Below are positions 21,495 through 54,603 of a DNA stretch of 64,000 nucleotides, one piece after another. This DNA is from a virus, in IMG/VR virus record IMGVR_UViG_3300045988_179014, positions 256,001-320,000 of that record. One strand, 5' to 3'. A program made the translations under genes and the position numbers. The notes beneath the pieces were generated by a model. That model saw only the letters and a list, made by a program, of their open reading frames with translations, was not told where the DNA came from and did no database searches. How positions within the stretch are numbered: the stretch's first letter is position 1; each line of letters starts with the position of its first letter.

Positions 21495-21568
21495 ACACAT
21501 TTGTTGACTATTGCCTGTATGAACAAATTAAATTCATAATGTAAAAGGTTTTAGAGTTGAAGTCATGG

Positions 21569-21713
21569 CTTACCCAGACGTGTTTTGAGCTTGATTTTTG
21601 TACTTCCTGATGCAAGTATCACAAACAAACATTTCTCCCAAAATATCTTGAAAACACGAAAAACGCCACCGAATAAGCTTGGTAGAATCTAACCTATTCA
21701 AGGGGCGTTACAG
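21569..21713 (-). repeat. copy A of a ~144-bp intergenic repeat family; carries a terminator-like hairpin plus T-tract when read on the minus strand
   Basis: Aligns at about 80% identity with copies at 26229-26372 and 41550-41692. Motifs 'gtacccagacgtgttttgag' at one end and 'aacgccNcc...ggtagaatctaacctattcaaggggcgtt' at the other. Confidence 0.6.
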
Positions 21714-21799
21714 GACACAATTTGAGCTGTACACACAATGTCCAAATTATCAGAGTTTCAGGCCACTTAAAACAGCCAAAGCAAATTTTATCAGGATTA

Positions 21800-22207
21800 T
21801 CATGTGGTGTAATAGATTTTCTTCACACCACGAGCCCGCAAAGCTCGTTGGCACCTTTCACAGGGCTTGCTCAGCATCGGCTCCCCAAAAGCACCAATGC
21901 GAGCAATGTAGATGGTTGCATTAGACAAATCCATCTTACGGCACGCACGCAACGCGGCCTCTTCCGCATGAATGGTCGATTCTTGCTTGGGGTCACTAAC
22001 CACCGTTGGGGGGTTAATGGTTCGATTAATACCCACCCCGATGACTTTTCCATTGCGAACAATGACAGCACCATGCCGGAACCGCACCCGTGACTTGGTG
22101 GCAAGTATCATTGCTCGTATTAGGAATGCTTCATCCCGCTTGAAACGAACCTCACGAAACACCAACCCATCATCCAAATCCGGATAGTAATTCTTCTGGT
22201 ATTTCAA
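21800..22207 (-). CDS. CMP/dCMP-type zinc deaminase (dCMP deaminase-like)
   Basis: 'HAEEAAL' + 'PCERC' is the cytidine/deoxycytidylate deaminase zinc-binding signature. 135 aa. Confidence 0.7.
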   Translation of the reverse strand: MKYQKNYYPDLDDGLVFREVRFKRDEAFLIRAMILATKSRVRFRHGAVIVRNGKVIGVGINRTINPPTVVSDPKQESTIHAEEAALRACRKMDLSNATIYIARIGAFGEPMLSKPCERCQRALRARGVKKIYYTT

Positions 22208-22318
22208 AGTGCAGCTCCTTTTTGATATCGCTGTACTATAGCATACACAAGTTGGCGGAATGAATCAAATCGTGGCAACTGATGCCATCAACACAAATTT
22301 ACTCCCAAGAACACAAAT

Positions 22319-22353
22319 AGACCCTGATTCTATTGGTGCTTGAATCAGGGTCT
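22319..22353 (-). terminator. rho-independent terminator candidate downstream of the 22370-22711 gene
   Basis: Perfect 12-bp stem (AGACCCTGATTC / GAATCAGGGTCT) with an 11-nt loop, followed on the minus strand by AUUUGUGUUCUU. Confidence 0.5.
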
Positions 22354-22369
22354 ACGTATGATGTTTTAA

Positions 22370-22711
22370 TCAGGGCCTATGTGTGCAAAAATCCCAGAGG
22401 GTGTTCAGGGTCTCCAGCAACTGAGCAAAAATAGCCTTTGCCCTAGTATCAGTTGCTTCCACCATGGACTCTGAAGCCTCGACCCCAAGACTGCTCAAGA
22501 CCTCTCGCAGGTAGCACTCCCCATATTCGGGGTCTGCCAAAACACCGCGCACGGCTTCTACCGCTGCCTCATCAATAATCTGCTGTTCCTGGTCCATGTT
22601 CTTCTCCCTACTCGTGTTGATGTCTTGCTTCAAGCATAACACACAAAAACACGACTTGTCTACCCCATCACACAATTGGCAGTTGACAGTTGACATCACA
22701 AACGAACACAC
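22370..22711 (-). CDS. small hypothetical protein (true start likely the internal Met giving ~75 aa)
   Basis: ORF upstream of the terminator hairpin. The N-terminal Cys-rich 38 aa may not be translated. Confidence 0.35.
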   Translation of the reverse strand: MCSFVMSTVNCQLCDGVDKSCFCVLCLKQDINTSREKNMDQEQQIIDEAAVEAVRGVLADPEYGECYLREVLSSLGVEASESMVEATDTRAKAIFAQLLETLNTLWDFCTHRP

Positions 22712-23030
22712 GAGCCCACCAGCTTGCGAAATCCTTCATCGCAACATAATTTGTAAAGTATTCAACGTTCTATCTGTAAGCCAGCTTCATCAAGCATGAG
22801 AACCGTTGCACACAAAAGCCACAAAAAGGAAGCACTCTGCCCAAGTTAGTAGTAGATATAGCGAACTCATGAACCAACCACCAACATCTTCAACAATCAA
22901 TAAAACCTTGATTAAAATGCTGAAAAATCAACAATGAACCCAACGTATAATGTATACAGCCAATCTTTGGACAAAAAATTAAAGGCCGGAAATTAATCCA
23001 GCCTTCAATTTCGGTTATTGTTCAAGAATT

Positions 23031-24098
<1,068 letters not shown>

Positions 24099-24372
24099 TC
24101 ATTTCACACGCATCTGTCAACAAGCCCTATTGTGGACAGAAGTATTCATTCTGAGAACTACAGTGTTTCTGATACACATTGAAAGGAACAATTCCATTAT
24201 TGCCATGAACCGAATCATAACCAGACTTGCTGTTCAGCGGTTTTGGAGACGTAACACATTGGTTGTATGAACATAAAGAAATAATTGCATATAGTGTTTT
24301 TAGTAAAGTGTTTTGTCCCCTATGGAAACCATCCGCCTCTGCAAACACTATACTCATGTCGTACTGTTGGAA

Positions 24373-25164
24373 TTATTTACTGATGCTCAACCCTTTGTAG
24401 GGCTGCACTTGAACACCAACCATTGTGGTCAAGTTTTCAACACCTGGTGGAATTGGTACTGCTGAGAACAATTTGACGCAGGCTGCAACAGCTTCCTGAC
24501 GTACTGCAATGTTTTCAGTTGTGTCCCGCATCATGTCATAAAGAGCATGAGCTTTGTCATTCAGGGCAATGGAATCCTCAGTATGGTACTGCAACTCAAA
24601 AGTTTCTCCCCAAGCTGTAGACCAACTTGTTAGAACACCTCTGTACGAACCACCTATTTGAAACGCACTCTTGATTTTGCGGCATACATTACCAGCATCA
24701 ACCAATGATTGTGCACTGACTTCCATGGTGCTCAAAAATGCATCATCTGAGGAAATGACACAACTGTAACGTACTATGTCATCCAGTTCTTCTACCAACA
24801 GTCGAGCGTTTTCCAATGTTGGTTCCAAACCGCGACGTTGCAGACGGTGCAGAATCTTTATGGCCACCGACAATGGAGACTTAACCCGATGCTCCAGATG
24901 AATATAACGTGTACCAACTATCCGCTGATTCTGCAAAATCCCACTGATACTATGTTCGGCGGCCAAACTGCGACACATTCGTTCCAATACGGCTTGATAC
25001 ACATTGAGTGGTACTGTAGTGGACGTAACCAACTGTTTCCAATCTGACTTCCACATCAAAGGTGCCGAAACATCTGACTCCAGTAGTTGTTCCATACGGT
25101 GGGTCAGGAGGGATAGTGCCACTGTTTGTTCAATCATGGTCATCATGTTGCTCTCCCTCCTCAT
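24373..25164 (-). CDS. hypothetical protein (263 aa)
   Basis: ORF only. Confidence 0.45.
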   Translation of the reverse strand: MRRESNMMTMIEQTVALSLLTHRMEQLLESDVSAPLMWKSDWKQLVTSTTVPLNVYQAVLERMCRSLAAEHSISGILQNQRIVGTRYIHLEHRVKSPLSVAIKILHRLQRRGLEPTLENARLLVEELDDIVRYSCVISSDDAFLSTMEVSAQSLVDAGNVCRKIKSAFQIGGSYRGVLTSWSTAWGETFELQYHTEDSIALNDKAHALYDMMRDTTENIAVRQEAVAACVKLFSAVPIPPGVENLTTMVGVQVQPYKGLSISK

Positions 25165-25383
25165 ACCCCTACTATTGCCATCTGTTTAACTGACAAAAAC
25201 TTATGTTTTCAGTTTACATGATGAACTCCTGTTTGTATATAGTCCTGCCATGGATAAAATAGGGTAGTTGTTAAGAGAAACCATACTCATGTTGTGTTCG
25301 TCTCTTGTGGAAGTAAAAACTACTGAACTTGCCACATCTGGAACTAAACTATGGGTTTTATACTGTTAATTATTGTCGAATAG

Positions 25384-26058
25384 TTGATTTTTGTGAAACT
25401 TGTTGTAGCGGAATGTTCAGCCATCTATAGTGGTCGGGGTGATACCACACTGGCACGCGGTCGCAGAGCCATCATGATTAAAGGTGATGGTTCAGTCTCA
25501 ATTCACAATGATGTGGGCAACAAACCGTTGAACTACATGAAACAACCCACTTTCTCTGAAACATTGAATTCTGACGGAGAAAGGGTATGGACTTTTGATG
25601 CTCGTCATGAATCCTTATCCATCACACTTCATCAAGTTGTTTTGGAAACAGCAATGGATTTGATTGGTGAACATGACCCTGGTTTGGTACGTGATGGGAC
25701 TGAAAACCAATTACAAGCATGGATTGCCGAACACCCTGAAGTACTTGGTGAAGGTTTTAGTCTGGTGAAACGTGAATACCCAACAGAAAACGGACCTGTG
25801 GATTTACTGGTTTTGGACAACATGGGTCTTCCTGTTGCTGTGGAGGTCAAACGTGTTGCTATGTTGGGTGCAGTTGACCAAGCCAGAAGATACATGGATG
25901 CGCTGAAAAGCCAACCCTACAATCCTGAGCTGCCTTTTGATTTGACACGTACTCGGGCCATGATTGCAGCAGTTGACATCAGACCAAAAACGATAGCTTT
26001 GGCGGAAAAACGAGGAATCGCGTTACGAACCATTCCTAGTGATTGGAAAACACTGTAA
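25384..26058 (+). CDS. nucS: endonuclease NucS (EndoMS), mismatch-specific RecB-like nuclease
   Basis: 'VKLVVAECSAIYSGRGDTTLARGRRAIMIKGDGSVSIHNDVGNKPLNYM' closely parallels the NucS N-terminal domain. C-terminal 'VDLLVLDNMGLPVAVEVKR' is the PD-(D/E)xK nuclease core. Confidence 0.8.
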   Translation: MIFVKLVVAECSAIYSGRGDTTLARGRRAIMIKGDGSVSIHNDVGNKPLNYMKQPTFSETLNSDGERVWTFDARHESLSITLHQVVLETAMDLIGEHDPGLVRDGTENQLQAWIAEHPEVLGEGFSLVKREYPTENGPVDLLVLDNMGLPVAVEVKRVAMLGAVDQARRYMDALKSQPYNPELPFDLTRTRAMIAAVDIRPKTIALAEKRGIALRTIPSDWKTL

Positions 26059-26228
26059 CAAACATTGACACAAAATATTTCACCAAACAGACTCTTCACA
26101 TTAGCTGATACATACTGATTCAGTTCTTCAGACATGTTGAAAATTGAAAGCATTACATGTTCTCTTATGAATTAATTTCAGGGATTCACCAATGTAGTCA
26201 GTTCAACATAAATCAACACTGATGCTTG

Positions 26229-26372
26229 CGTACCCAGAAGTGTTTTTAGCTTGGTTTTTGTGTTTCCTGATTAGGTATCACAAACTAGGATTTCTAACAA
26301 AACCTCTTGAAAACATGAAAAATACCCCTGAATAAGCTAGGTAGAATCTAACCTATTCAAGGGGCGTTACAA
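26229..26372 (-). repeat. copy B of the ~144-bp intergenic repeat family
   Basis: Aligned to copies A and C. Lies directly downstream (minus-strand sense) of the lipoprotein gene. Confidence 0.6.
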
Positions 26373-26519
26373 AAAGCGATTATGGCTTTGGAAGAAAACC
26401 CTCCAGCAACCAAAATATACATTGTGAACCATGCAATCGTCTTAGTCCTGCTAATAACAATATTTTGATTGTTTTACTTGTTGAATAATGACAATCCTCT
26501 GTATCTTCTGTTTGTACAA

Positions 26520-26999
26520 TCAACCAATTGTTTTCCACATCACTTGTATGGTTGAATAAAGTGGGTCGTCTTCAATGTTGTCATATTCACAGAAGAAAAT
26601 CTTTTTGGAGCCCCATTCAGAAACAACAACACCCATGTCTTCCTGTCCTGTACAGTTTGTTTCAGTAGGTGGGAGCGAAACAGCAGTTGGTATTTTGCTA
26701 TCACGCACGGCTTCTCGGTATTGCCCAACCAAATCCAAATCTACTGTAGCCCCCTTGGATGTACTACCGTCACTGTACAAAGCCACAGATTCCTCATCAC
26801 AATAGACAACATCACCTCGCATTTTGCAGGAACGTTTCATCAAAGTGGCAATGGTGTCCTCAGATGGTTTCGGAAATGATGATTCTGTCCCATATGATGG
26901 AGTTGGTTCAGGTGATGATGACTCTGCGCTGGAAGAACAACCACCCACTCCTATCAAACAACACAAACCAATCAATCCTGTCACAATTCGTTTCAGCAT
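26520..26999 (-). CDS. putative lipoprotein (159 aa)
   Basis: N-terminal 'MLKRIVTGLIGLCCLIGVGGCSSS' is a signal peptide with a lipobox-like 'GGC'. Confidence 0.5.
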   Translation of the reverse strand: MLKRIVTGLIGLCCLIGVGGCSSSAESSSPEPTPSYGTESSFPKPSEDTIATLMKRSCKMRGDVVYCDEESVALYSDGSTSKGATVDLDLVGQYREAVRDSKIPTAVSLPPTETNCTGQEDMGVVVSEWGSKKIFFCEYDNIEDDPLYSTIQVMWKTIG

Positions 27000-27046
27000 A
27001 AAACATGTCCCCTTCTTTTCACATACGATTGTTCTAAATATGCAGA

Positions 27047-27433
27047 TTACAATGATGCTTCGGCTAGTAAACGAGAAACCGCTACTATATCAAATCCACG
27101 ACTAAATTCTAGGTGAACTTGTCCTACACTGCTGTACCATAAATCCACTTCACTGTCCAAATCGACTGTTCCTGCCGTTTCAATGGACCAAGCTTGCAGT
27201 TTTTTGTACGGTAATGACGCGAATGCTTTCTTGGTGCCCGTCATGCCTTGAACATTCACAACAATAACGCGACGATTGGTAAAAACCACATAATCTCTTA
27301 TTCCTTTGGCAGCAATCATAATGGTTTCATGATTGACCAGCAAAGGTTGAATATTTGCTTGAACTTCAACAGGATTAACTGGACCAAGTTTTACCAATGA
27401 GGAGTTTTTGAAATCAATCATGGCTTTCTCCAT
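27047..27433 (-). CDS. bacterial PH-domain-like (YdbT/bPH) protein
   Basis: 128 aa; 'RDYVVFTNRRVIVV' resembles the bPH 'TnkRlli' core. Weak. Confidence 0.4.
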   Translation of the reverse strand: MEKAMIDFKNSSLVKLGPVNPVEVQANIQPLLVNHETIMIAAKGIRDYVVFTNRRVIVVNVQGMTGTKKAFASLPYKKLQAWSIETAGTVDLDSEVDLWYSSVGQVHLEFSRGFDIVAVSRLLAEASL

Positions 27434-27624
27434 TTCCGTAAAAGTAACGAATTATAGTTAAATCTTTCAACACATAGATTTTCTGGCATCAAGCAGAAGA
27501 ACCACAAGTATTCAATATTGGTTTATGATGATTCGATAAATAGATTCATTTCATCATAAACAATTTGTCTTTAACATATCTTTTAAACCGCTTAAGGATA
27601 TCCTACAATTTGTTGATTATCGGG

Positions 27625-28782
27625 TCATCGTCTTGAAGAACGCCAAGAACCAGTCAACTTCCTGGCGGTATCAGTAATGGTTGCAATTTGTTCCTGAGTC
27701 AATCCAAACATTTTGTACAATTGTGGTTCCAATGGGCGGTTCCAACGAATGTGTGGATTGTCGCTGGAATAATCACCCAAGTCCGGAACAAAAACACCCC
27801 AACGAGCTGATTTTCCACCACGACTTTCCTCCAACAAATACCTTACAAAATCAGTGTCAATATAAGCTTTGTAATTGTTGGCTTCTTCCTTGGTCGCAAA
27901 AGTCCCCACCATGAGCCAAGAAGCACCAACAATATGCTCATTGTCAACAACACGATAACTGGAAGTGGCAGGACGTTTACTTATCTGCCCTTGAGAGGAC
28001 AGAACTTTCCATGATTCCATCAACTGGGTTTTTTCTGAAGTCCAATCCAAGAGAGAACCATCAATCCAATACTCCTGAACCCGTTTCTGTTTACCTGGAA
28101 TATTGTTCCCCAAGTAAGCACGAACTGGACGAATGAAACGACCAGACCCTTCATGTATATTTCTCACTGCATCAGGATTCTGCTCCACCCAATTAGTGGG
28201 AAGACCAAACGCATTCACTTTGCAACGTCGCATGCTCACACTGTTGTAACCTTGTGCAAAAATTGTTTCCACAATATTCACAGCATCCCGGCTCAATGGC
28301 AGAATCTCTTTGTTTTTTGGGCGATTGACAGCGATTCCGTTAAGTTCTAAATGATTTGGTGTTTCATTGTTATTGTTCACAGTGACAACAGCGACCCCAT
28401 CCGGAATCGCCACACCTGGAAACAATGGGACCACAGAGCTTTCTTCACCATGAGGAAACCAGTCAATACTGATAGCAGATGAAAAAATGCGATTGGCAAC
28501 ACCATCATATCCTTTAGCGCGCTGCATCCAACGCCCCCCAGGAATAATTACCGAACCATGAATGCCCACATCAGCCACCAAATCATAAAAACACGGGAAA
28601 ACACTGACCACATTACTGTCCCGACCTGATGTTGTTGGGGTACCAGTTGAATACTGATACGGTGGGTTGCTCGCTACAAAAGTATAATCAATGCTGTTGT
28701 CATTTTCCATGAGTTTCAGAGCTTCTTCAATCTGCCCGTTCAGCAGTAGAGTAGCTTTCTCCTCAACCGTCAAAGTGTTCAT
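27625..28782 (-). CDS. restriction-modification subunit 2: N6-adenine MTase catalytic motif IV (NPPY) plus putative target-recognition region
   Basis: 'YTFVASNPPYQYS' near the N-terminus. Start ATG at 28780-28782 overlaps the TGA stop of the upstream helicase gene (ATGA coupling). The ORF-track start at 28815 is an in-frame upstream ATG inside the overlap. Confidence 0.55.
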   Translation of the reverse strand: MNTLTVEEKATLLLNGQIEEALKLMENDNSIDYTFVASNPPYQYSTGTPTTSGRDSNVVSVFPCFYDLVADVGIHGSVIIPGGRWMQRAKGYDGVANRIFSSAISIDWFPHGEESSVVPLFPGVAIPDGVAVVTVNNNNETPNHLELNGIAVNRPKNKEILPLSRDAVNIVETIFAQGYNSVSMRRCKVNAFGLPTNWVEQNPDAVRNIHEGSGRFIRPVRAYLGNNIPGKQKRVQEYWIDGSLLDWTSEKTQLMESWKVLSSQGQISKRPATSSYRVVDNEHIVGASWLMVGTFATKEEANNYKAYIDTDFVRYLLEESRGGKSARWGVFVPDLGDYSSDNPHIRWNRPLEPQLYKMFGLTQEQIATITDTARKLTGSWRSSRR

Positions 28783-31967: not shown

Positions 31968-32457
31968 AAGGTATTCTCCTCTTAGTTGGTTGCATATTTA
32001 TGAGGAATCATAGAAACCTCAAAGTTACACTAGCAAACTCCATTTTATTTGTCAAATACATAGAACTATAAGTAATGACAAAACTGATGATTTTACATAA
32101 TGCTCATCATCGTTTTCATCCTGTTCAGACATCTTGTTTCACCATGTTGTGTTAAACTGTCATCATCCTTGAATGGCATTAACCACAAATAATGAATGAA
32201 GATTCAATTGTCAACATTTCATCACCACAGCATCATATGATGACATTTTGACGCAATGGAATCAAAACCATGGACCAAACCTGTAACGACACAACGAAAG
32301 CAAAACATACGTTGTTTCATACCAGCCAACTTATTTCAACTGCGAATCGTCGTCCCCTTGTATTCATGCAAGTTTGTTTTTGTGCTACAAGAAACATGAG
32401 AAAAAGAAAGAATCATTCCAGTTGTGATAATTGTTTGAATTTGTCACAACCCAACAG

Positions 32458-32913
32458 TCAAAGAATGAAAACGTCTGTATCCATTTCTGAAGTACCATTG
32501 TTTCCCACAATATAAGTCACAGGGCTGGTCATCAGTAAGAAGTCATCTGTTACTGTATTTCCCGGATGAGCAAACAACGCTTTTTCTCTTGTCTGCAAAT
32601 TGACCAGTACCATGTTGACATATAGATGATACTGACCATTGGATTGCTCTTGTTGCACCACCCAATGATTGGATTCAGGTAAAGGACATATTGTATACAC
32701 ACTTTTACTGAGAGTTTCAAATCTCATGGATGGAGGAACAGGCGATGTTCTCTGCAAATCTTTCATCACAGACACCCCATAATTGTTCATGATGATGCTG
32801 TCAGCTGCCATCAATGCCATCTCGTAATCATTGAATCGTTGGTATGAACCATTGTCCCCTGACCATGGAACTGGATGAATATGCCCATGAGGATGTAAAA
32901 CATATTTACTCAT
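32458..32913 (-). CDS. hypothetical protein (151 aa)
   Basis: ORF only. Confidence 0.4.
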   Translation of the reverse strand: MSKYVLHPHGHIHPVPWSGDNGSYQRFNDYEMALMAADSIIMNNYGVSVMKDLQRTSPVPPSMRFETLSKSVYTICPLPESNHWVVQQEQSNGQYHLYVNMVLVNLQTREKALFAHPGNTVTDDFLLMTSPVTYIVGNNGTSEMDTDVFIL

Positions 32914-33078
32914 ATTGAAACCTCCTTGGTTGATTCAATTTGTCACATGTTTCACCTTGTCGTCTAACCAATATGTGTACCCAAGTCCTGTAAACATTGT
33001 ATACAAATCAGTACAGGGCAGATGAGAACTGATTGAAGCCCCCGTCCGCCCTGTTTGTTAGGTTGTATGATTTTGGTT

Positions 33079-34542: not shown

Positions 34543-34575
34543 TAATCTCTAAAAACAAACCAAGTATAATCGCAA

Positions 34576-35448
34576 TCATTTTTGAAGTACGAATCGTGTG
34601 GCATCAATACCAGCTCGTGCCCCATCACCCACTGCAATGGCAACTTGACGATGTTCTGGTTTGGTAACATCCCCAGCTATAAAAAACCCAGGAACATTTG
34701 AACATTGAATGAATCCATCTGCAAACAAAGTTACATGAGGTTTTGCAATACTAGAATTCGGCTCCTGTCCAATAGCCACAAAAACCCCAGTAACCGATAG
34801 TTGCCGGCCATCATCAAGTTGTACTGATTCCACTGAGTCAATGCCATCAATAGAGACAATGGATGATTCCATGGATACTGTAATTCGAGGATGTGTCAAC
34901 AGTTTTTGCACTGCGGGTTCAGTTGCTCGCCATTTTGAACTTCGCACCAACACATGAACTGATGACGCTACTTGTGCGAGGTATAGTGCATCCTCTACAG
35001 CTGTTTCTCCACCTCCAACAACTGCTACATGCTCATCCTCAAAAAACAAACCATCACATGTGGCACAATAAGAAACACCATCAAGATGCTCCCCTGGTAT
35101 GCCTAATTTCCGTGGGGTGGAGCCAGTAGCAAAAACAACTGATTTGGAAAACATTTTTTCACCAGAAACCAATTGAAGCATAAACCCATTATTGTGTGTT
35201 TCAATGGTGTCAACTGTTTCGTGTAATAATTGTGCCCCAAATTTTTCTGCATGTGATAAAAACGCATCGGCCAGTGCACTTCCTGTATAATCTGGCAGTC
35301 CAAGGTAATTGTCTATCTCCTCTGTGGAAAGCAATAAACCACCTTGTGTTTCCCCTGTCAGAACCACAGTTTTCAATCCCGCACGACTGGTGTATAATGC
35401 TGCGGACAAACCAGCAGGTCCAGAACCAACAATTATTGTGTCTATCAC
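34576..35448 (-). CDS. trxB: thioredoxin-disulfide reductase
   Basis: FAD site 'IIVGSGPAGLSAA', redox-active 'CATCDG', NADPH site 'VAVVGGGETA'. GTG start at 35446-35448 is preceded by a perfect GGAGG at -7. The ORF-track start at 35541 is probably an artefact. Confidence 0.8.
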   Translation of the reverse strand: MIDTIIVGSGPAGLSAALYTSRAGLKTVVLTGETQGGLLLSTEEIDNYLGLPDYTGSALADAFLSHAEKFGAQLLHETVDTIETHNNGFMLQLVSGEKMFSKSVVFATGSTPRKLGIPGEHLDGVSYCATCDGLFFEDEHVAVVGGGETAVEDALYLAQVASSVHVLVRSSKWRATEPAVQKLLTHPRITVSMESSIVSIDGIDSVESVQLDDGRQLSVTGVFVAIGQEPNSSIAKPHVTLFADGFIQCSNVPGFFIAGDVTKPEHRQVAIAVGDGARAGIDATRFVLQK

Positions 35449-35537
35449 TCGTAATCCTCCATATGTTTCAGCAAGTATTTTAACGAAACACCACTGAAGC
35501 GAGATTGATGTTTTGTCTGAAGATGTCTTACACCCAA

Positions 35538-36866
35538 TCACAATTCATCATCTGGTGACGACACATCAAGACCTTCCATATGCATTAGTAAAGACAATGG
35601 CAGTTTTGTTTCACGGTACAATTCCAAAACCTCTTTAATCTCAGGTCCTGTGAACCTTTTGTAAGCATATAGTTGATTGTAGTGGTCCCCTTCAGCTGGG
35701 AGGACTTCCGGCAAATCTTTTAGCAATGCCTCAAAATCTTTCTCGTCCCATTCCAAAAACGCCTTATAAACGGGGAAAGAATTAAACAACATCCAAGATA
35801 TGTTAGAAGGATTGCGAATGTCCACTTTATCCACTATTTTATTTGCCAATGCTACTAATTGTTCCTGTTCAGAAGCAGTAGCAATACGTTCCACAACAGT
35901 GGAAAATAGTACATTATCAGTTGGTTTGGCTGGACGGATGCCTTTTCGCAATCTGCTCTCTAGAAACTCTCCCACTTCAATAGGGTCATGTTCTTGGATG
36001 GTTTGGAACAAAATCAACGCATCCTCAATTGCCATGGGAGCCGCAGATAAACCAGGTACAGGAACATGTTTATTCCAGTTGTTGGCATCATCCCACAGAT
36101 AGATGGTCCAATTAACCACTAAATTTCTAATCTCTTCCCTCATCTCAGCCGAAAAACCGAGAAGTGAAGACAATGGCAGTTTTTGGCCAAATGCATTGGG
36201 AGCAGTTTTTCCATTTTCTCCATTGAAGAAAGCCACCAAAGTGTTCATCATCAAACGCTCTTCCCATATAAATGGGGAATTGGTGTCTCCTGCACGAATA
36301 CCAGGACACAAGGGAAAAGTTGGAAACAAATACCCAAAAGCGGAGTCAAAATCCAATTGAGACACATTGGGTGCTATTGGATGAGTTTCAGCAGCTTCCA
36401 ACACTAAATTCTTGGCATCATTGAAAACATTCTCCTTTGCTGACAGAAAACACAGGAAACTGGCAATAGCACACCATTTGGCGCCAGGTTCCAATGATTG
36501 TGAGAGTATCCACTCAATTGTTTCTTTGCAATCTGGAGAATGTGGATAATACTGAAGTTCCCTGTATGGGGTTTGGACCCGATGAGTTACTCCCGGGTTT
36601 GGCATTCTAATTGTCCCCATAACATCAATGTATTCTAGTAATGCATCAATGATAGGTTCTAGCAAACCATCATCCTCCAACAAACCACCATTGTGAATAC
36701 TGAACAAGCGTACCAAGTCACTGGAATCTGTTTTCTTGTGAGCCCGGAAGCGGCGAGGGTGTTTTCCCATGTAAGCATAGATTACCGCTACTCCAGTCCC
36801 CAGAATAATTCTGCGTATCAGCCCACGGTCACGGATTTCTACTGGGTTACGCATTGAACTAGACAT
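35538..36866 (-). CDS. hypothetical protein (442 aa)
   Basis: ORF only. No motif recognised. Confidence 0.5.
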   Translation of the reverse strand: MSSSMRNPVEIRDRGLIRRIILGTGVAVIYAYMGKHPRRFRAHKKTDSSDLVRLFSIHNGGLLEDDGLLEPIIDALLEYIDVMGTIRMPNPGVTHRVQTPYRELQYYPHSPDCKETIEWILSQSLEPGAKWCAIASFLCFLSAKENVFNDAKNLVLEAAETHPIAPNVSQLDFDSAFGYLFPTFPLCPGIRAGDTNSPFIWEERLMMNTLVAFFNGENGKTAPNAFGQKLPLSSLLGFSAEMREEIRNLVVNWTIYLWDDANNWNKHVPVPGLSAAPMAIEDALILFQTIQEHDPIEVGEFLESRLRKGIRPAKPTDNVLFSTVVERIATASEQEQLVALANKIVDKVDIRNPSNISWMLFNSFPVYKAFLEWDEKDFEALLKDLPEVLPAEGDHYNQLYAYKRFTGPEIKEVLELYRETKLPLSLLMHMEGLDVSSPDDEL

Positions 36867-37100
36867 ATGAAAGGCTACCTCTCTGAAGCAATATTGGTTT
36901 CATCATCAACAATAGCATACAATCTGTTCCTGAGCTACTCAGAACATCATAAAAACATAGCCTGTTCCAAAGATATTTCGCTATTCTGTATCATAAAATC
37001 GTAGTATTGGGGAAACGAATTTGCATGACTCAGATTCTAAACGTCTATTGTTTTTGACAGTCCAACGATTTTAAGTATTCAATATATCAAGGATTGAAAA

Positions 37101-37168
37101 GGATATGTTTCCACTCATTGTAATCATTGTTTATTATTGACAACTGATTACACAACGGAAACATATCC
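37101..37168 (-). promoter_or_regulatory. 12-bp perfect inverted repeat (GGATATGTTTCC ... GGAAACATATCC) with a 44-nt spacer, between the 37257-37607 gene end and the 36866 gene start
   Basis: Read from the sequence. On the minus strand it is followed by UUUUCAAUCC. It could be a large-loop terminator or a protein-binding operator. Confidence 0.35.
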
Positions 37169-37256
37169 TAATAACTTAATATACTACATATTTTTAACTG
37201 ATGACTGAATCAGATGATGTTCTAAAAACTACTAATTAACTGTTAACGTGTTTTGT

Positions 37257-37607
37257 TCATGAGTCTAAAGAGTGCTCTAAACACATCAAGCTTACTGTGT
37301 CTCCATAACGTTCATAATTTTGGAGCCATTTGACTTGCCGGGACATCTGCAACAATGATAAATAATTCAAACCCTGACCGTTTCCACTTTGAATCAGCTG
37401 TTCAAGCGCTTTTTCCAAAGTGTTGGCCAGGGTTTTTGTTTTCGAACGTGCTGGATTCGTCCCGAGCACCCCAAGACGTTTGGCAATGCCTGCAATGGTT
37501 GCTCTCTCCCAGATTGATTGAATCGTAGCATCATTATAGTCATCATCAATGGTTGTTGAATCTTTGATGTCAGACTCACAAAGTGGATGGTCCAACAAAA
37601 CACTCAT
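37257..37607 (-). CDS. hypothetical protein (116 aa)
   Basis: ORF only. Confidence 0.35.
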   Translation of the reverse strand: MSVLLDHPLCESDIKDSTTIDDDYNDATIQSIWERATIAGIAKRLGVLGTNPARSKTKTLANTLEKALEQLIQSGNGQGLNYLSLLQMSRQVKWLQNYERYGDTVSLMCLEHSLDS

Positions 37608-37829
37608 AATCGGTCTCCTCTGAACTAGGAACTAATAACAAACATGTAGTTTCATCAGTTCGTGGCAGGTAGGCGAGACTGATTAAATTATCTACAATCA
37701 CCATAATAGACAACCGCGTCCAAACAAGTCAAATCATTCTTCAAAAATGTTTATGCTAAAATAACAACAATATTTAAAAACCATGAAAACAGAAACCATA
37801 GTCTTACCAAAACGCCAGTAAAATCAATG

Positions 37830-38261
37830 TTATTGGTTTGTGGAAGCGATACCGGTCGAGTCTTTGTGTTCCCAGAGTTTCATCAAACCGTTACGAACTC
37901 TGTCCACGTCATCAGGGGTACCCAATAATTCAAATGAGTACAGTAGGGGAATTTGAAGTTTACGACTGATGATTTTACCAGCCAATCCAAAAGCGGTACC
38001 AAAGTTAACATTTCCAGCTGTAATCACACCCAAACAATGTGAACGATTGTCAACATCATTGAGAAACTTAATCACTTGTTTAGGAACTGCTCCTTTTACT
38101 TCCCCACCACCATAGGTAGGAACCACCAATACATATTCCTCATTAACATGCAGAAAAGGGTCTTTTGCCCTCAACGGGATTCTCTCACTTGGAAAACCCA
38201 ATTTCTCCACAAACCGTTTAGTGTTTTCTGTGACGGATGAAAAATACACCAACTTGACCAT
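37830..38261 (-). CDS. nrdI: class Ib RNR flavodoxin-like protein NrdI
   Basis: '[21 protein letters not shown]' is the canonical NrdI N-terminus. ATG at 38259-38261 is preceded by AAAGG. The ORF-track start at 38318 adds 19 aa. Confidence 0.8.
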
Positions 38262-38429
38262 TACATACCTTTCGTCTGAATCTCTCAGTAGTTTAACCAA
38301 TGAAGGAACCAAGAGCACCAGAACACACCAACCACTTCATCCTGTTAACACTGTTCGTTTTGTTGGAGATAAAGTGACAGTGTTTCAATTAAGAATCAAA
38401 GTATGTATCCATTGAGGTTGTTGTATATG

Positions 38430-39668
38430 TTACAGAACCCCTCTGAAAATGTTGGCAAGGTCCGAGATGATGATAAGACTCATGAAAATCAGCACAGGAA
38501 CGCCAGTAATAATTGACATGGCGCCCATCCCGCGTGGACCGATAGGACGATAGACACGACGAGTCAATTTACTGAAACCCATTTTCACACTATCCAGCAA
38601 CGCCATGAAAATGCGTCCACCATCCAACGGCATCAATGGAAGAAACAAGTTGATGAAACCCAATCCGATGTTCAACAATCCAGAATACATGAGCATCATC
38701 TTGAATTTGTTACCATCAGTCAATCGTGTGGATGCAGTGGTGTCACCATATGTTTTCCCCACTGCCACAATAGACGATGGAGCTTCTGCATCCCGTTCTG
38801 TTGTGCCCAGAATATTATTCACCAGGCCAGGAATTTTGGATGGTAGTTTTGCCAATGATTCCGTGTTGAGAACAAACAAGTTTTTCATGGCTTCAACAGA
38901 TTCACCAAAAGTTGCTGTTCGTTCCACACTTGCAAGATTGATACCAATTTTTCCGTTGGTTACTGGTACTGTAAAAGTCTGTTGTGAACCGTTACGTTCC
39001 ACTACAACAGACACTTGGTTTTGATTTGCAAGTAGTGGACTGATTTGGCGACTGTTTTCCACAGGGGTCCCATTAATGCTAACAATGTTGTCCCCTGGTT
39101 GTAATCCTCCTCGTTCCGCACCACATGATTCCCCTGCTTTTATTTGTTCACAACTGTTTACTGTATCAATTCGATTACTGATGAAATTGCTGGGAAATGC
39201 CATCAATATGGTTATTAGGATTGCTGCACCCAGAATCAGGTTCACCACAGGCCCCGCCATGAAAACCAGAATACGTTTCCAAGGTGATACATGAGACAAC
39301 AAGTTCTTTCGAGCCTCGTAATCATCCAAGAGTTTTTGACGTTCCTTCTCTGTCTTTTCTCTTGTCTCATCATCAATGTTGGATTGAGCCAATATGTCAT
39401 CATAAACAGATGTATCTGGTTTGGGTGTTTTGTCATCCTCAATCAACACGAATCCGCCCAATGGAACAGCTTTGACCCCATATTCTGTGCTTTTGTGTTT
39501 ACGAGAGAATATTGTGGGGCCAAATCCGACGAAAAATTTTGGCACATGCAGTTTCACAGCTTTGGCAACAACCATATGACCTGCCTCATGAAGACCAATG
39601 GATACAACCAATATGACCAAGAAAATAATCAAACCACATATCCAGGCCAAACTTTCCGTCAACTGCAT
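38430..39668 (-). CDS. rseP: site-2 protease, M50 family zinc metalloprotease (RseP/Rip1-like) with PDZ domain
   Basis: 'HEAGHMVVAK' HExxH in TM1. Central PDZ-like region 'GLQPGDNIVSINGTPV'. C-terminal 'LNxxP..DGGRI' motif. Confidence 0.8.
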   Translation of the reverse strand: MQLTESLAWICGLIIFLVILVVSIGLHEAGHMVVAKAVKLHVPKFFVGFGPTIFSRKHKSTEYGVKAVPLGGFVLIEDDKTPKPDTSVYDDILAQSNIDDETREKTEKERQKLLDDYEARKNLLSHVSPWKRILVFMAGPVVNLILGAAILITILMAFPSNFISNRIDTVNSCEQIKAGESCGAERGGLQPGDNIVSINGTPVENSRQISPLLANQNQVSVVVERNGSQQTFTVPVTNGKIGINLASVERTATFGESVEAMKNLFVLNTESLAKLPSKIPGLVNNILGTTERDAEAPSSIVAVGKTYGDTTASTRLTDGNKFKMMLMYSGLLNIGLGFINLFLPLMPLDGGRIFMALLDSVKMGFSKLTRRVYRPIGPRGMGAMSIITGVPVLIFMSLIIISDLANIFRGVL

Positions 39669-39905
39669 GATTCAGGCTCCTTTGTTAATCGTTCAGTACT
39701 GAATATTACAGACCTGAATATTAGGACTGCTTTATCAATATCCCAGAATTATTCATTCCTACGCTATCAAATACGTTTCCAAAATCAATCACAACTTTAT
39801 ACAGAATTTGTTTACATGATGAATGAAACCAACTGACCTCATTACAGCTCATTCCAAATACTTATGACAAACATACAGAAAACTGGCCGATAATATTTTC
39901 TTACA

Positions 39906-40763
39906 CTATGGGGATTCAACCACTAGAAGAGCATTGCTTGAAGGCCAAATAACTGTTCCATCTGAAGACATGATACGTACTTTGGATTTCAGGTGTTCTA
40001 TATAGCCTGATTGAACATACTGCTCATGATGCAATATGGTGAACTTGTGTTGTGACAACAATGCGAGATAATCCAGTTCAGTCAATATTCCATACATTTC
40101 CTGTACTTCACGGATTGCTGATTCTGGTCCCCATGTATATGTGTACACTATTTCCATTGCAGACCCCAGATTGCCAATCCAATTGTTTGGGCCGCTTTGC
40201 TGCAAGTTTACGGTCCATGAACTGAATGAATCAGACCAGAAGGGAGAATTGTCAGCATAGTAACACACAAAATCGTCTCCATCAGATTGCAGGAATTGCA
40301 CCATTACTGAATCAGACCAATTGGAGGGTTTGATACCGTCACGTATGACAAGACGACCCCCTGGACGAAGTAATCGACGAAAACTAATCAATGCGTTGTT
40401 CACGTCAATCAAATCACCAGGAACATGAAATGCTTCCCCATATGAATACACTTCATGCATTATTGAGGAACACACAACATTGTCAAAACTGTTTTCAGGA
40501 AACAATGAATCCAATTCAGCTACATGTCCCAATACCCCGTGAATATTGTCATATTGTTGGATACGCGTTTGTGATGATGGGGATGCATCCAAAGCATAGG
40601 TTTCATATCCATGATTTGCCATGATGTGTGACAGTTTGCCGCTACCTGCTCCAACATCCAGAACTGAACCAGGTACCAGCCAATCCAAAATATGCTGTTT
40701 ATCTCCTAATGATGCTTCCATCCGCTGAAAATATGTTGCATCATGACTATCAACCATCACCAT
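39906..40763 (-). CDS. class I SAM-dependent methyltransferase
   Basis: 'SVLDVGAGSGKLS' motif I, and an acidic residue at the end of beta2 ('YALDAS'). Confidence 0.65.
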   Translation of the reverse strand: MVMVDSHDATYFQRMEASLGDKQHILDWLVPGSVLDVGAGSGKLSHIMANHGYETYALDASPSSQTRIQQYDNIHGVLGHVAELDSLFPENSFDNVVCSSIMHEVYSYGEAFHVPGDLIDVNNALISFRRLLRPGGRLVIRDGIKPSNWSDSVMVQFLQSDGDDFVCYYADNSPFWSDSFSSWTVNLQQSGPNNWIGNLGSAMEIVYTYTWGPESAIREVQEMYGILTELDYLALLSQHKFTILHHEQYVQSGYIEHLKSKVRIMSSDGTVIWPSSNALLVVESP

Positions 40764-40949
40764 GAATATGTTCTCTTCCTTTGTTTGTTTTTGGTAACAA
40801 GTATACTAAGCATACATTACACAATTGGAACATCATACTAGTAGTGGTTGAAGAAACAATAATGGTTCACATTCCATCACGCTCTTTAAAAGTGAATATT
40901 ATGGAGTGTGAACCAACAGATTACCGCTAAACTTGTATAAGAATGCGTC

Positions 40950-41330
40950 TTAAGTATTATCTGGCCTTGGATATACTGTTTCTGCGTCAAACAACAGTCT
41001 TACTTGATATCCTGTACCAAAACCAATGGTAACAGGCCTGATAATTTCTGCTACCCCTGAAGTCACTAGACATTCCGTGACGCCTGCTCCTTCTCCATAA
41101 TCTTTGATGAATACTTGATTTGGACCAATGTCAACATTAGGTAGCAGGTTGACACTAACAGAAGTTGGTATATATTCATCTTCCACGGCCAAGCCCAAAT
41201 TACCATCCAGATATCTGAACACACTGACTTCTGCTGGTTCTCCATTATTGTATGGATAAGCTTCTGTTACAACGGGAATTGCCACACCAACTGAACGATA
41301 CGTGCTCACACTGCACCCTTTCCTCTCCAA
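40950..41330 (-). CDS. hypothetical protein (126 aa)
   Basis: ORF only. Confidence 0.35.
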   Translation of the reverse strand: MERKGCSVSTYRSVGVAIPVVTEAYPYNNGEPAEVSVFRYLDGNLGLAVEDEYIPTSVSVNLLPNVDIGPNQVFIKDYGEGAGVTECLVTSGVAEIIRPVTIGFGTGYQVRLLFDAETVYPRPDNT

Positions 41331-41549
41331 ATTTTGTTCATATACAGATTAGCGCAACACATACAAATAATCAACTATCAACAAGTGTTTACACATCACC
41401 TCAAGTAGTAGTGGTACATTGCATTAGGCTCTGCGTATCAAAGCGAAAGATGATAAGAACAATCAAGTAAACAACTATACGTGAAACTAATGAAATTTGA
41501 AGTTGGGGTAATATTCAAGTTCTGTTTGCATTTACACATATATTCATGA

Positions 41550-41692
41550 CGTACCCAGACGTGTTTTGAGTTTAATTTTCTCGTTTCCTGATGCAAGTAT
41601 CACGAAGAAGCATTTCGCGTAAAACTTCTTAAAAATATGAAAAACGTCCCCGAATCGGCTTGGTAGAATCTAGCCTATTCAAGGGACGTTAC
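41550..41692 (-). repeat. copy C of the ~144-bp intergenic repeat family
   Basis: Aligned to copies A and B. Its stem carries compensatory changes relative to copy A (aacgCc/gGcgtt versus aacgTc/gAcgtt). Confidence 0.6.
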
Positions 41693-41835
41693 AGAAAGAG
41701 ATTTGCAGCACAATTTGACGTACCAAAATCCAACAATATTCAGGCCATAGTAATAGATTCTGACTCTAACATCTCAGAAGAGTATTCTTCATCTGTGTTG
41801 GTACGCAAGAATAGCCTCCACATGATAAATGGTTG

Positions 41836-48290: not shown

Positions 48291-48355
48291 GTACTTTTCC
48301 TCTATTTAGACCAATCTTTACTGGGTTTCTTCCGAATAATGGTTTTACTCGGTTG

Positions 48356-49528: not shown

Positions 49529-49549
49529 ATCCAGTTTTCAAAACAACCC

Positions 49550-50704: not shown

Positions 50705-50812
50705 TACAAATTTATTGGGGTTCTATACATAGAGAATACCAGCCAAGACCATTAAGTTCAAGCTTCAGTAGCATAAACACTGTAGAGCCAACCTTGATGC
50801 TGTACCAATCTT

Positions 50813-54563: not shown

Positions 54564-54603
54564 TTTCCAGTTTCATTGATGTGAGTGTGTTTTCAGATTT
54601 CAC

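What the first reader, a model, noticed from the sequence alone, without database searches (positions are those of the whole stretch)
21569..41692. Three copies of a ~144-bp structured intergenic repeat carrying a terminator hairpin with compensatory mutations
Copies lie at 21569-21713, 26229-26372 and 41550-41692, all in the same orientation and about 80% identical. Read on the minus strand, each begins with the hairpin AACG(C/T)CCC...GG(G/A)(G/C)GTT followed by a U-rich tract, exactly where the upstream minus-strand gene ends. Copy C has C->T on one arm and G->A on the other, which preserves pairing. The remaining ~100 nt ('...gtgatacttgcatcaggaa...caaaacacgtctgggtac') is also conserved. That is more than a terminator needs, so the element may encode a small RNA or be a MITE/REP-like mobile terminator cassette.
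Basis: seen in the sequence. Interest (0 to 1): 0.55.

Follow-up and report, generated by a model that had tools for sequence, protein, structure and literature searches.

The report
Dispersed terminator-hairpin repeat in oral mega-replicon
The three repeats are real copies of a ~160-base intergenic module, a long RNA hairpin that looks like a transcription stop signal plus a conserved tail of unknown role, which is ancient at one site in a group of uncultured giant phage-like genomes from the human mouth and has spread to at least four more sites in this genome.

Summary
Observation confirmed. Copies A (21567-21726), B (26227-26385) and C (41548-41707) lie on the minus strand and are 76-81% identical. 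Their flanks are unrelated, so they are not segmental duplications.

- **More copies.** The same organism has at least two more: D upstream of an sbcC-like gene and E upstream of gyrA. E is inverted relative to its neighbours.
- **Age.** D is ancestral. It is present at the same locus in four distant relatives (29-57% element GC). A, B, C and E appear lineage-specific.
- **Hairpin.** Covariation support is strong: 93% of cells paired, 11 of 19 pairs with compensatory changes, 0 of 500 shuffles as good. G·U outnumbers A·C 21 to 4, so the RNA is read from the minus strand. In this genome a U-tract follows, making it an intrinsic terminator. It is the only convincing one in 40 kb.
- **Tail.** The ~95-nt tail has conserved blocks and a fixed length (70-72 nt from GGAAA to the end). 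I found no supported helix, promoter, ORF or Rfam match.
- **Copy exchange.** Copies exchange sequence by gene conversion, and assemblies break inside them.
- **Not shown.** No TIR or TSD, so MITE status is unproven. Nothing supports an sRNA gene.

Best reading: a terminator-bearing boundary module dispersed by recombination, functionally closest to T4 PeSL cassettes. Tail function is unresolved.

The parts
21567..21726 (-). Copy A, whole module (leader motif, P1 hairpin, U-tract, tail). It lies between the convergent dCMP-deaminase (-) and RecN-like (+) genes.
   Evidence: CM R1 hit at 164.5 bits, E 1.7e-28; nhmmer E 7e-50; alignments A1 and A9.
21662..21709 (-). Copy A, P1 hairpin (48 nt): an 8-bp lower stem, a bulge, a 9-11-bp upper stem and the 7-nt loop AUUCUAC.
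   Evidence: MFE -17.5 kcal/mol on the sense strand against -14.8 antisense. Pair counts.
21648..21661 (-). Copy A, U-rich tract directly 3' of P1 (UUUCGUGUUUUC; the last two stem pairs are A-U).
   Evidence: Read from the sequence.
21567..21647 (-). Copy A, conserved tail with the blocks GAAAU, GUGAUAC, AUCAGGAA and CUCAAAACACGUCUGGGUA.
   Evidence: Alignments A6, A7 and A9. The length from GGAAA to the end is 70-72 nt in every lineage.
26227..26385 (-). Copy B, whole module. It lies between the convergent 159-aa lipoprotein-like gene (-) and NucS (+).
   Evidence: CM R1 hit at 151.7 bits, E 4e-26. The terminator scan recognises 26363-26325 plus TATTTTTCAT.
26321..26368 (-). Copy B, P1 hairpin.
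   Evidence: MFE -23.5 kcal/mol sense against -15.1 antisense.
41548..41707 (-). Copy C, whole module. It lies between two minus-strand genes: a HAD_SAK_2-like gene at 41836-42507 and a 119/126-aa gene at 40950-41330.
   Evidence: CM R1 hit at 158.6 bits, E 2e-27.
41643..41690 (-). Copy C, P1 hairpin, carrying the C->U / G->A compensatory pair.
   Evidence: columns 22/62 read U-A in this copy; -22.2 kcal/mol.
21800..22207 (-). dCMP/cytidine deaminase gene whose transcript would run into copy A.
   Evidence: ORF list; Pfam dCMP_cyt_deam_1 on the called gene.
26520..26999 (-). 159-aa lipoprotein-like gene upstream (sense direction) of copy B.
   Evidence: ORF list; exact-protein look-up.
41836..42507 (-). 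HAD_SAK_2-like gene upstream (sense direction) of copy C.

Best explanation
**What it is.** The repeats are copies of a ~160-nt intergenic 'boundary module'. The module consists of:
- a short leader motif (AAAU-N7-CCUGUAACG);
- a long (~19-bp, bulged) RNA hairpin, P1;
- a U-tract;
- a ~95-nt tail with a tightly conserved length.

**Ancestral copy (shown).** The original copy sits between an upstream operon and an sbcC-like operon in a clade of uncultured, very large phage-like replicons from the human mouth.

**Dispersal (shown that it happened; route inferred).** In this lineage the module was copied to at least four other intergenic sites: A, B and C in the window, and E upstream of gyrA. 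The copies are kept mosaic by gene conversion.

**How it most likely works (inferred).** On minus-strand transcripts P1 plus the U-tract acts as a factor-independent terminator. As a ~20-bp duplex it could also serve as a 3'-end-protecting or RNase III-type processing hairpin. It would close the dCMP-deaminase, lipoprotein and HAD transcription units.

**The tail (function not identified).** The tail is probably a second cis-acting part of the ancestral sbcC-upstream element, carried along when the module was copied. The invariant loop AGAUUCUACC points to a sequence-specific partner.
For: **More copies, unrelated flanks**
- D: L003 8147-8306 and L004.
- E: L189 5563-5721.
- Apart from the element itself, L003 has no similarity to the 84 kb already held.

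**Orthologous conservation of D**
- L092 (113 bits), L110 (105 bits) and L130 (99 bits). Element GC is 57%, 29% and 52%.
- L094 carries a partial copy.
- All lie directly upstream of the SbcC homologue.

**A, B, C and E are not ancestral**
- The RecN relative L095 has no copy in the locus held.
- The gyrA relative L253 has none upstream of gyrA.

**P1 hairpin**
- 93.1% of cells pair, against 82.4% in shuffles and 32-51% when partners are slid.
- 11 of 19 pairs show changes on both sides; 0 of 500 shuffles reach any measure.
- An independent MAFFT/RNAalifold run also recovers P1.
- Strand: 21 G·U cells against 4 A·C cells. The sense hairpin is more stable than the antisense in all six copies of this species.

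**Terminator anatomy**
- U-tract UUUUUC(A/G)UGUUUU follows the stem.
- Across 40 kb, terminator-like sites are not above chance (8 found against 16 expected; 13 against 14.4). The element is the only long one.

**Gene conversion**
- A compared with its ortholog in a strain whose neighbouring protein is 95% identical: the sequence immediately flanking the element is almost identical, but there are 19 differences inside the element. All fall in columns 1-117, and 12 match copy C.
- L003 and L004 are 98.9% identical over 2.9 kb but only 92.5% in the element.
- E is a mosaic of A, B and D states.

**Assemblies break in or beside the element**
- L002 ends, and L007, L093 and L094 start, inside it. 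L096 starts at the sbcC ATG just beyond it.

**Tail**
- The distance from GGAAA to the end is 70-72 nt in 12 sequences from 5 lineages.
Against: - Copy E is antisense to both of its flanking genes, so it cannot terminate a co-directional upstream gene. Only 2 of the 3 informative loci (C, D, E) are co-directional.
- Two relatives (L094, L130) keep the long hairpin but have no U-tract. Termination may therefore not be the conserved function of P1.
- P1 is far longer than a typical terminator stem, and its loop is invariant, which a plain terminator does not need.
- The tail is conserved across deep divergence. A terminator does not explain this, and I could not assign it a function.
- No transcript data were available.
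- About 250 kb of the 337-kb contig was not examined, so copy number is only a lower bound.
- The P1 alignment used for the counts was fitted to the model.
Confidence: 0.5

Rival explanations
1. The whole ~160-nt module is one functional structured RNA, either a cis-regulatory leader or processing element or a stable ncRNA. P1 would be a protein-binding domain rather than a terminator, and the dispersed copies would be paralogous RNA genes.
For: - Overall length is 159-162 nt in three lineages of very different GC content, and 171 nt in L130. The tail is 70-72 nt everywhere.
- The loop AGAUUCUACC is invariant in all copies of this species and nearly so in L092 and L094.
- G·U asymmetry shows the minus strand is the RNA strand.
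- L094 and L130 lack the U-tract but keep the hairpin and the tail blocks.
- A 10-bp helix between GCAUCAGGAA and UUUCUGGUGC is possible in copy D (duplex p = 0.007-0.03).
Against: - No tail helix is conserved. RNAalifold's second hairpin breaks in the distant lineages.
- The candidate long-range helix is no better than shuffles in L092, L130 and L094 (p = 0.56, 0.85 and 0.54).
- No promoter was found upstream of P1.
- A strong hairpin plus U-tract at the 5' end would terminate most transcripts before the tail is made.
- No Rfam family matches, even at E <= 10.
- Whole-element folding z-scores are only -1.2 to -2.8.
Confidence: 0.2
2. A MITE-like, non-autonomous mobile element that happens to carry a terminator. 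It would be inserted by a transposase or recombinase encoded elsewhere in the genome.
For: - At least five copies of 160-190 bp, all intergenic, in both orientations (E is inverted).
- Four of the five sites are lineage-specific.
- The module starts and ends with a similar motif (CUCAAAUUGUGUCCUGUAACGCC and CUCAAAACACGUCUGGGUAAGCC). This repeat is highly significant in L130, where 1 of 2000 shuffles matches it.
Against: - No terminal inverted repeats and no target-site duplications are visible at any copy.
- The end-motif similarity is weak in this genome (p = 0.05-0.26).
- No transposase was seen in about 100 kb of context.
- Copy D has stayed at one locus across relatives whose SbcC proteins are only 46-57% identical to this one. 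That is not how a MITE behaves.
- The copies differ by 20-25% yet are mosaic. This fits recombination between resident copies rather than recent bursts.
- No empty site was available.
Confidence: 0.15
3. A DNA-level element. The apex of the palindrome would carry an antisense promoter: the plus strand reads TGGTAGAAT, an extended -10. The module would then be a combined 'stop one way, start the other way' signal or a protein-binding site.
For: - The plus-strand sequence of the loop is (T)GGTAGAAT in four of the five copies of this species (copy B reads AGGTAGAAT) and GGTAGAAT in L094.
- The same octamer GGTAGAAT lies 6-9 nt upstream of the sbcC ATG in L092 and L094. There it is the only -10-like element.
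- In copy E this putative promoter points at gyrA, about 135 nt downstream.
- The loop is the most conserved block of the family.
Against: - In A, B, C and D the promoter would fire antisense into the 3' end of the upstream gene, with no gene to express.
- L092 has GGTGGAAT, which loses the essential A at -11. The L110 and L130 loops are unrelated.
- gyrA and sbcC each have another -10 (GATAAAAT) closer to the start codon.
- Compensatory stem changes and the G·U bias point to selection on RNA, not on duplex DNA.
Confidence: 0.1
4. Chance similarity, or leftovers of larger segmental duplications with no function of their own.
For: Only three copies lie in the window, within 20 kb of one another.
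Against: - The core occurs 3 times against 0 expected.
- Flanks are unrelated.
- Further copies lie on another contig.
- The element is conserved in distant relatives.
Confidence: 0.02

Closest known systems
PeSL (promoter-early stem-loop) cassettes of T4-type phages (Arbiol et al. 2010, PMC2839356; Comeau et al. 2014, PMC4122927)
   Same: - Short composite intergenic repeats in a large phage-type genome.
- Each contains a stem-loop described as an effective terminator, followed by further conserved sequence.
- Several copies lie close together in variable regions.
- Recombination between copies drives sequence exchange (for the description; for conversion here).
   Different: - A PeSL carries a sigma-70-type promoter, a Shine-Dalgarno sequence and the start codon of the next gene directly after the stem-loop. 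No promoter, SD or start codon is conserved in this tail. Two copies have no downstream gene at all.
- This module is about 160 nt with a ~19-bp hairpin.
- One copy is orthologously conserved across relatives of very different GC content.
- There is no sequence relationship to PeSLs.
Canonical intrinsic (Rho-independent) terminators
   Same: A G+C-rich stem base (CGCC/GGCG) is followed immediately by a U-tract. The element lies downstream of co-directional genes at A, B, C and D. Stem pairing is maintained by compensatory and G·U changes.
   Different: The stem is about twice the usual length, the loop sequence is invariant, and about 95 nt of conserved sequence follows. Two relatives lack the U-tract. 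One copy (E) is inverted with respect to its neighbours.
Phage T7 RNase III processing sites (R0.3, R0.5, R1, R1.1, R1.3) (from my own knowledge, not tested here)
   Same: These are repeated, related intergenic hairpins of about two helical turns with an internal loop or bulge, found between genes of a phage transcription unit. After cleavage they leave a protective 3' hairpin.
   Different: No cleavage evidence is available here, and no RNase III gene or host is known. The T7 sites have no U-tract and no conserved downstream tail.
Bacterial intergenic repeat families with terminator or regulatory activity, such as Neisseria Correia elements, pneumococcal RUP/BOX and REP/BIME (from my own knowledge)
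   Same: All are 100-200-bp intergenic repeats that form hairpins, can terminate or stabilise transcripts, and occur in either orientation.
   Different: - Those families have tens to hundreds of copies per genome.
- They have defined TIRs and TSDs (Correia, RUP) or a dedicated RAYT transposase (REP).
- Only five copies are known here, with no TIR or TSD, and one member is anciently conserved at a single locus.

Membership tests
Intrinsic (Rho-independent) terminator | Stable G+C-rich RNA stem-loop maintained by base pairing | tested here: met
   93% of cells pair, 11 of 19 pairs are compensatory, 0 of 500 shuffles match. Hairpin energy is -17.5 to -25.6 kcal/mol.
Intrinsic (Rho-independent) terminator | U-tract immediately 3' of the stem on the transcribed strand | tested here: met
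   UUUUUC(A/G)U(G/A)UUUU follows the stem in A, B, C, D and E. It is weaker in L092 and L110 and absent in L094 and L130.
Intrinsic (Rho-independent) terminator | Lies downstream of a gene transcribed in the same direction | tested here: inconclusive
   True for A, B, C and D. False for E, which is antisense to both neighbours.
Intrinsic (Rho-independent) terminator | Releases transcripts in vivo or in vitro | not testable with these tools
   No transcript data were available.
PeSL-type promoter-terminator cassette | Stem-loop immediately followed by a sigma-70-type promoter (-35/-10) | tested here: not met
   No promoter-like site falls inside any copy. The only -10-like hexamers in the tail (GATACT) are lost in B, L092 and L094.
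PeSL-type promoter-terminator cassette | 3' end of the cassette carries the SD and start codon of the next gene | tested here: not met
   A and B face the 3' ends of convergent genes. C is 239 nt from the next start codon and D is about 47 nt away, each with a separate -10.
PeSL-type promoter-terminator cassette | Multiple copies that recombine with each other | tested here: met
   A conversion tract in L007 copy A matches copy C. Copy E is a mosaic.
MITE | Terminal inverted repeats | tested here: not met
   The ends read CUCAAAU...CCUGUAACG and ...CUGGGUACG. They are direct repeats, not inverted ones.
MITE | Target-site duplication flanking each copy | tested here: not met
   No shared short direct repeat lies immediately outside the homology boundaries of A, B, C, D or E. 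No empty site was available to define the ends exactly.
MITE | Several intergenic copies in either orientation, with lineage-specific insertions | tested here: met
   Five copies, with E inverted. The element is absent near RecN in L095 and upstream of gyrA in L253.
Trans-acting sRNA gene | Own promoter upstream and terminator at the 3' end of a discrete transcript | tested here: not met
   The terminator-like hairpin is at the 5' end, and no conserved promoter precedes it. The plus strand has no U-tract after the hairpin.
Any curated RNA family (Rfam 15) | Match to a covariance model | tested here: not met
   No hit at gathering threshold in the whole window. Only noise at E <= 10 around copy A and the L092 and L130 orthologs.
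RNase III processing hairpin (T7 R-site type) | About 20 bp of duplex RNA with an internal loop or bulge, lying between genes | tested here: met
   8-bp plus 9-11-bp stems separated by a bulge in this species. L110 and L130 have perfect stems of 16 and 21 bp.
RNase III processing hairpin (T7 R-site type) | Cleavage by RNase III | not testable with these tools
   Needs RNA end mapping or an enzyme assay.

The most novel reading that the evidence does not exclude
The module is a previously undescribed cis-acting RNA element. A long hairpin with a sequence-specific loop is followed by a length-constrained 70-72-nt region. The element would be conserved upstream of the sbcC-like operon throughout a clade of uncultured giant phage-like replicons from the human mouth, and would do something other than simple termination, for example protein-dependent processing, antitermination or strand-specific transcription control. 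In this lineage it would also have become a dispersed, recombining repeat.
Probability: 0.25. Interest if true: 0.6.

Novelty: new variant of a known kind. Interest (0 to 1): 0.42.

Why it matters
- **Transcription units.** If the reading is right, the three copies mark the only strong transcription stops in this part of a very large uncultured replicon. They give a first handle on its transcription units.
- **Origin of repeat families.** The family shows a conserved single-copy regulatory element turning into a dispersed repeat that is homogenised by gene conversion. This is a route to PeSL-like or REP-like families that is seldom seen at so early a stage.
- **Assembly.** The repeats explain why assemblies of this organism break repeatedly at the same places.
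- **Candidate RNA motif.** The conserved tail and the invariant loop are not explained. That makes the sbcC-upstream element a reasonable candidate for a new RNA motif, worth testing with existing oral metatranscriptomes.

Tried and rejected
**Known RNA families.** No Rfam match for the whole window at gathering threshold, nor for copy A, L092 or L130 at E <= 10. No tRNA or tmRNA.

**Coding potential**
- A 12-codon ORF (M-F-S-R-x-F...) starts right after the U-tract. It is kept with the same length in this species, L092 and L110, and L110 uses a different stop codon. However, the start is ATA in copy C, L007 copy A has a premature stop, L130 has TAG at the start position, and L094 reads through. 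Substitutions are not concentrated at third positions (sequences).
- A second ORF (MLVCDTCI...) exists only in some copies.
- The plus-strand ORFs starting MVES... lack a start codon in B.

**Promoter in the tail.** None was found on either strand, and the element motifs are not reused upstream of other genes.

**Tail helices.** P2 (UGAU/AUCA) and a long-range helix (CAGG/YCUG plus UAC/GUA) look plausible by eye. They fail in distant lineages.

**Flanking direct repeats.** The similarity between the two ends is significant only in L130.

**Other resemblances considered by eye and dropped**
- Integron attC sites
- DtxR/IdeR iron box
- LexA box
- DnaA box
- ECF-sigma -35 motif (TGTAAC/GGAAC)
- tRNA T-arm

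Each fails on spacing or is not conserved in L092, L110 or L130.

**Searches that returned nothing useful**
- Exact-core scans of GTDB genomes and IMG/VR.
- Megablast of 24 kb against phages and plasmids.
- NucS and RecN as IMG/VR queries.
- A look-up of P0002.
- Look-ups that returned only the same contig.
- GTDB RecN loci, which were only Actinomycetota at 41% identity or less.

**Nature of the replicon: unresolved**
- IMG/VR lists the relatives as viral contigs of 88-420 kb.
- No capsid or terminase gene was seen. PHROG hits are few.
- There is no close relative among cultured phages or plasmids.


Full report
**1.

The three stretches align over about 160 nt (alignment A1, 83% mean column identity). 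A covariance model built later places them at 21567-21726 (A), 26227-26385 (B) and 41548-41707 (C). All are on the minus strand, with E 1e-26 to 1e-28. Pairwise identity is 76-81%.

The 24-nt core occurs three times against 0.00 expected. The repeat finder reports the family as isolated 175-nt units with unrelated flanks (family D13). The hairpin, the U-rich tract and the C->U / G->A compensatory pair in copy C are all present.

One detail is overstated. The hairpin begins 91-152 nt after the upstream stop codons, not exactly at them.

**2. Where the window comes from**

An exact-protein look-up places the window on ENA contig ERZ27262748:k119_28504, which is 337,400 bp. A sister contig from a human oral metagenome is 344,924 bp (PRJEB6997).

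GC content is 38-45%. The window has no tRNA.

Recognisable genes include:
- a tellurite-type stress cluster;
- ribonucleotide reductase beta, dCMP deaminase, and RecN-like and NucS proteins;
- a T5orf172-helicase, an ART-PolyVal protein, a Ser/Thr kinase with a PP2C phosphatase, and an M50 protease.

Many ORFs have no Pfam or PHROG match. Relatives of a neighbouring gene are listed in IMG/VR as viral contigs of 88-420 kb. I saw no capsid or terminase gene, and there is no close relative among cultured phages or plasmids. The nearest cellular RecN sequences found are from Actinomycetota.

I therefore call it a huge phage-like replicon of uncertain type.

**3. The family is larger than three**

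| Copy | Location | Context |
|---|---|---|
| A | window 21567-21726 (-) | between convergent dCMP deaminase (-) and RecN-like (+) |
| B | window 26227-26385 (-) | between convergent lipoprotein-like (-) and NucS (+) |
| C | window 41548-41707 (-) | between two minus-strand genes |
| D | L003 8147-8306; L004 | 35 nt after a membrane-protein gene, about 47 nt before an sbcC-like gene |
| E | L189 5563-5721 | about 95 nt upstream of gyrA, on the opposite strand to both neighbours |

Copy D was found by a metagenome scan with the loop core. L003 has 41% GC and shares nothing else with the 84 kb I could read around the window. Its SbcC is 98% identical to one at the very start of IMGVR_UViG_3300045988_187329, a 188,933-bp contig. 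I therefore treat D as another part of the same or a near-identical genome.

Copy E came from a looser pattern scan of IMG/VR. It lies on the same 189-kb contig, about 120 kb from D.

A second pattern that fits all five copies found nothing else in IMG/VR. Within the 84 kb of the 337-kb contig that I could read, only A, B and C exist. About 250 kb remains unexamined, so five is a lower bound.

Independent assemblies stop in or beside the element. L002 ends, and L007, L093 and L094 start, inside it. L096 starts at the sbcC ATG just beyond it. This is the usual behaviour of a multi-copy repeat.

**4. One copy is ancient, the others are not**

SbcC homologues at 46-57% identity were traced to contigs of very different composition:

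| Locus | Locus GC | Element result |
|---|---|---|
| L092 | 63% | 113 bits |
| L110 | 36% | 105 bits |
| L130 | 47% | 99 bits |
| L094 | 39% | partial, weak hit; recognisable by eye |

In each, the intergenic region just upstream of sbcC contains the same module.

More distant SbcC loci have ordinary terminator hairpins or a different conserved region there, and the model does not hit them (L097-L109, L111-L119).

By contrast, a RecN relative (L095) has no copy in the locus held. A gyrA relative (L253) has none upstream of gyrA. So D is the ancestral member, and A, B, C and E are lineage-specific.

**5. The hairpin is a real RNA structure on the minus strand**

I aligned ten sequences to the model. 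The alignment is fitted to the model, so it leans towards the structure.
- 93.1% of pair cells are standard pairs, against 82.4% after shuffling and 32-51% with slid partners.
- 11 of 19 pairs show changes on both sides.
- None of 500 shuffles reaches any of the five measures.

An independent MAFFT/RNAalifold run also recovers the helix. L110 and L130 have entirely different stem sequences, 16 and 21 perfect pairs, at the same place.

G·U cells outnumber A·C cells 21 to 4. The sense hairpin is more stable than the antisense hairpin in all six sequences of this species. Selection therefore acts on an RNA read from the window's minus strand.

In this species the stem is followed by UUUUUC(A/G)UGUUUU. 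In two 20-kb scans, terminator-like sites were not above chance (8 against 16.0 expected; 13 against 14.4). The element was the only long one. On anatomy it is an intrinsic terminator, and a conspicuous one.

**6. What does not fit a plain terminator**

- The stem is about 19 bp with a bulge, roughly twice the usual length and the size of an RNase III substrate.
- The loop AGAUUCUACC is invariant in all copies and strains of this species and nearly so in L092 and L094. The stems vary.
- L094 and L130 keep the hairpin but have no U-tract.
- Copy E is inverted relative to its neighbours.
- The tail is conserved in blocks: UUU..GGAAAU, GCUU, (G)UGAU, CAG and YCUG. The distance from GGAAA to the end is 70-72 nt in 12 sequences from five lineages whose element GC ranges from 29% to 57%.

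**7. The tail: what I tested**

- *Structure.* RNAalifold's second hairpin is broken in the distant lineages. A long-range helix that looks good in copy D (10 bp) is no better than shuffles in L092, L130 and L094.
- *Coding.* Two mini-ORFs are not conserved. L130 has a stop at the start position, copy C has ATA, and L007 copy A has an early stop.
- *Promoter.* None was found on either strand, and the element motifs are not reused elsewhere in the window.
- *Known families.* None match.
- *End repeat.* The start and end of the module resemble each other as a direct repeat. This is highly significant only in L130.

I could not assign a function to the tail. Its conservation at the sbcC locus argues that it has one.

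**8. Copies exchange sequence**

- Copy A in the window and its ortholog in a strain whose neighbouring protein is 95% identical (L007) are almost identical in the sequence immediately flanking the element. They differ at 19 positions inside it. All 19 lie in columns 1-117, and 12 carry the state of copy C.
- L003 and L004 are 98.9% identical over 2.9 kb but 92.5% in the element. The differences include a completely replaced 15-nt stretch.
- Copy E combines states typical of A, B and D.

This is gene conversion among dispersed copies.

**9. Interpretation**

The best-supported account is a boundary module. Its hairpin terminates minus-strand transcripts and possibly also protects or processes them. 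It is ancestral upstream of sbcC, was copied in this lineage to other intergenic sites, and is kept mosaic by recombination.

Functionally, the closest described thing is the PeSL cassette of T4-type phages (PMC2839356; PMC4122927). It fails the PeSL definition because no promoter, SD or start codon follows the stem-loop.

MITE status is not established: there is no TIR, TSD or transposase, and one member is anciently fixed at its locus.

A structured-RNA reading is kept alive by the length constraint and the invariant loop. An antisense-promoter reading rests on the loop reading TGGTAGAAT on the plus strand. GGTAGAAT is also the -10 of the sbcC promoters in L092 and L094, and in copy E the motif points at gyrA. 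Each of these readings has clear evidence against it.

**10. Verdict**

This is a real, non-trivial repeat family and a new variant of a known kind. The sRNA part is not. The mobile-cassette part is open. The finding is of moderate interest, mainly for the unexplained conserved tail and loop and for showing a conserved single-copy element becoming a dispersed repeat.

Noticed in passing
window 47145-64000 (minus strand), continuing into L010: A tandem array of at least 14 paralogous genes of about 350-420 aa, spaced 1.14-1.2 kb apart (repeat families D1-D20). One member has no Pfam or PHROG match.
   Followed up: partly
window 8782-18000 (minus strand): A complete tellurite-type stress cluster: StiP/PELOTA, PRTase_2/TRSP, C-C bond lyase, TelA, TerD paralogues and TerC/DUF475. 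An ART-PolyVal protein lies next to it at 18767-19570.
   Followed up: no
L002 end, L007 start, L093 start, L094 start, L096 start: Five independent metagenome assemblies break inside or right beside a copy of the element. The repeat therefore limits assembly of this organism.
   Followed up: yes
L003 8270-8285 against L004 2501-2516: Two strains are 98.9% identical over 2.9 kb, yet a 15-nt stretch of the tail is completely different (GCGACAGAATCTTTC against ACTGTTAACCCTCTC). L130 shares AGCGACAG with L003.
   Followed up: partly
L092 ~9444-9470; L094 ~235-255; L130 ~9985-10003: The sbcC genes of relatives have a -10-like GGTAGAAT or GGTACAAT only 6-12 nt upstream of the ATG. This suggests leaderless or very short-leader mRNAs, as is common in Actinomycetota.
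   Followed up: no
L112-L114 and L117-L119, about 2800-2990: A more distant group (60% GC, SbcC 30% identical) has a different conserved region of about 150 nt upstream of the SbcC homologue. It looks structured, ends in a terminator (CCCCGCCACGTGG...CCACGTTGGCGGGGTGTTT), and has no Rfam match.
   Followed up: partly
L007 2290-4155 against window ~24100-24370: The strain whose neighbouring protein is 95% identical carries an extra 621-aa DUF4379 gene between the 257-aa gene and the ribonucleotide reductase gene. The window has only a 76-aa ORF there. The A-B interval is therefore variable between strains.
   Followed up: no
window 21610-21651, 26270-26310, 41591-41632 (minus strand): A 12-codon ORF starts 1 nt after the UUUUUC run that follows the hairpin. 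It has the same length in this species, L092 and L110, and L110 uses a different stop codon. It is absent from L130 and degenerate in copy C and L007 copy A. It is probably not coding.
   Followed up: yes
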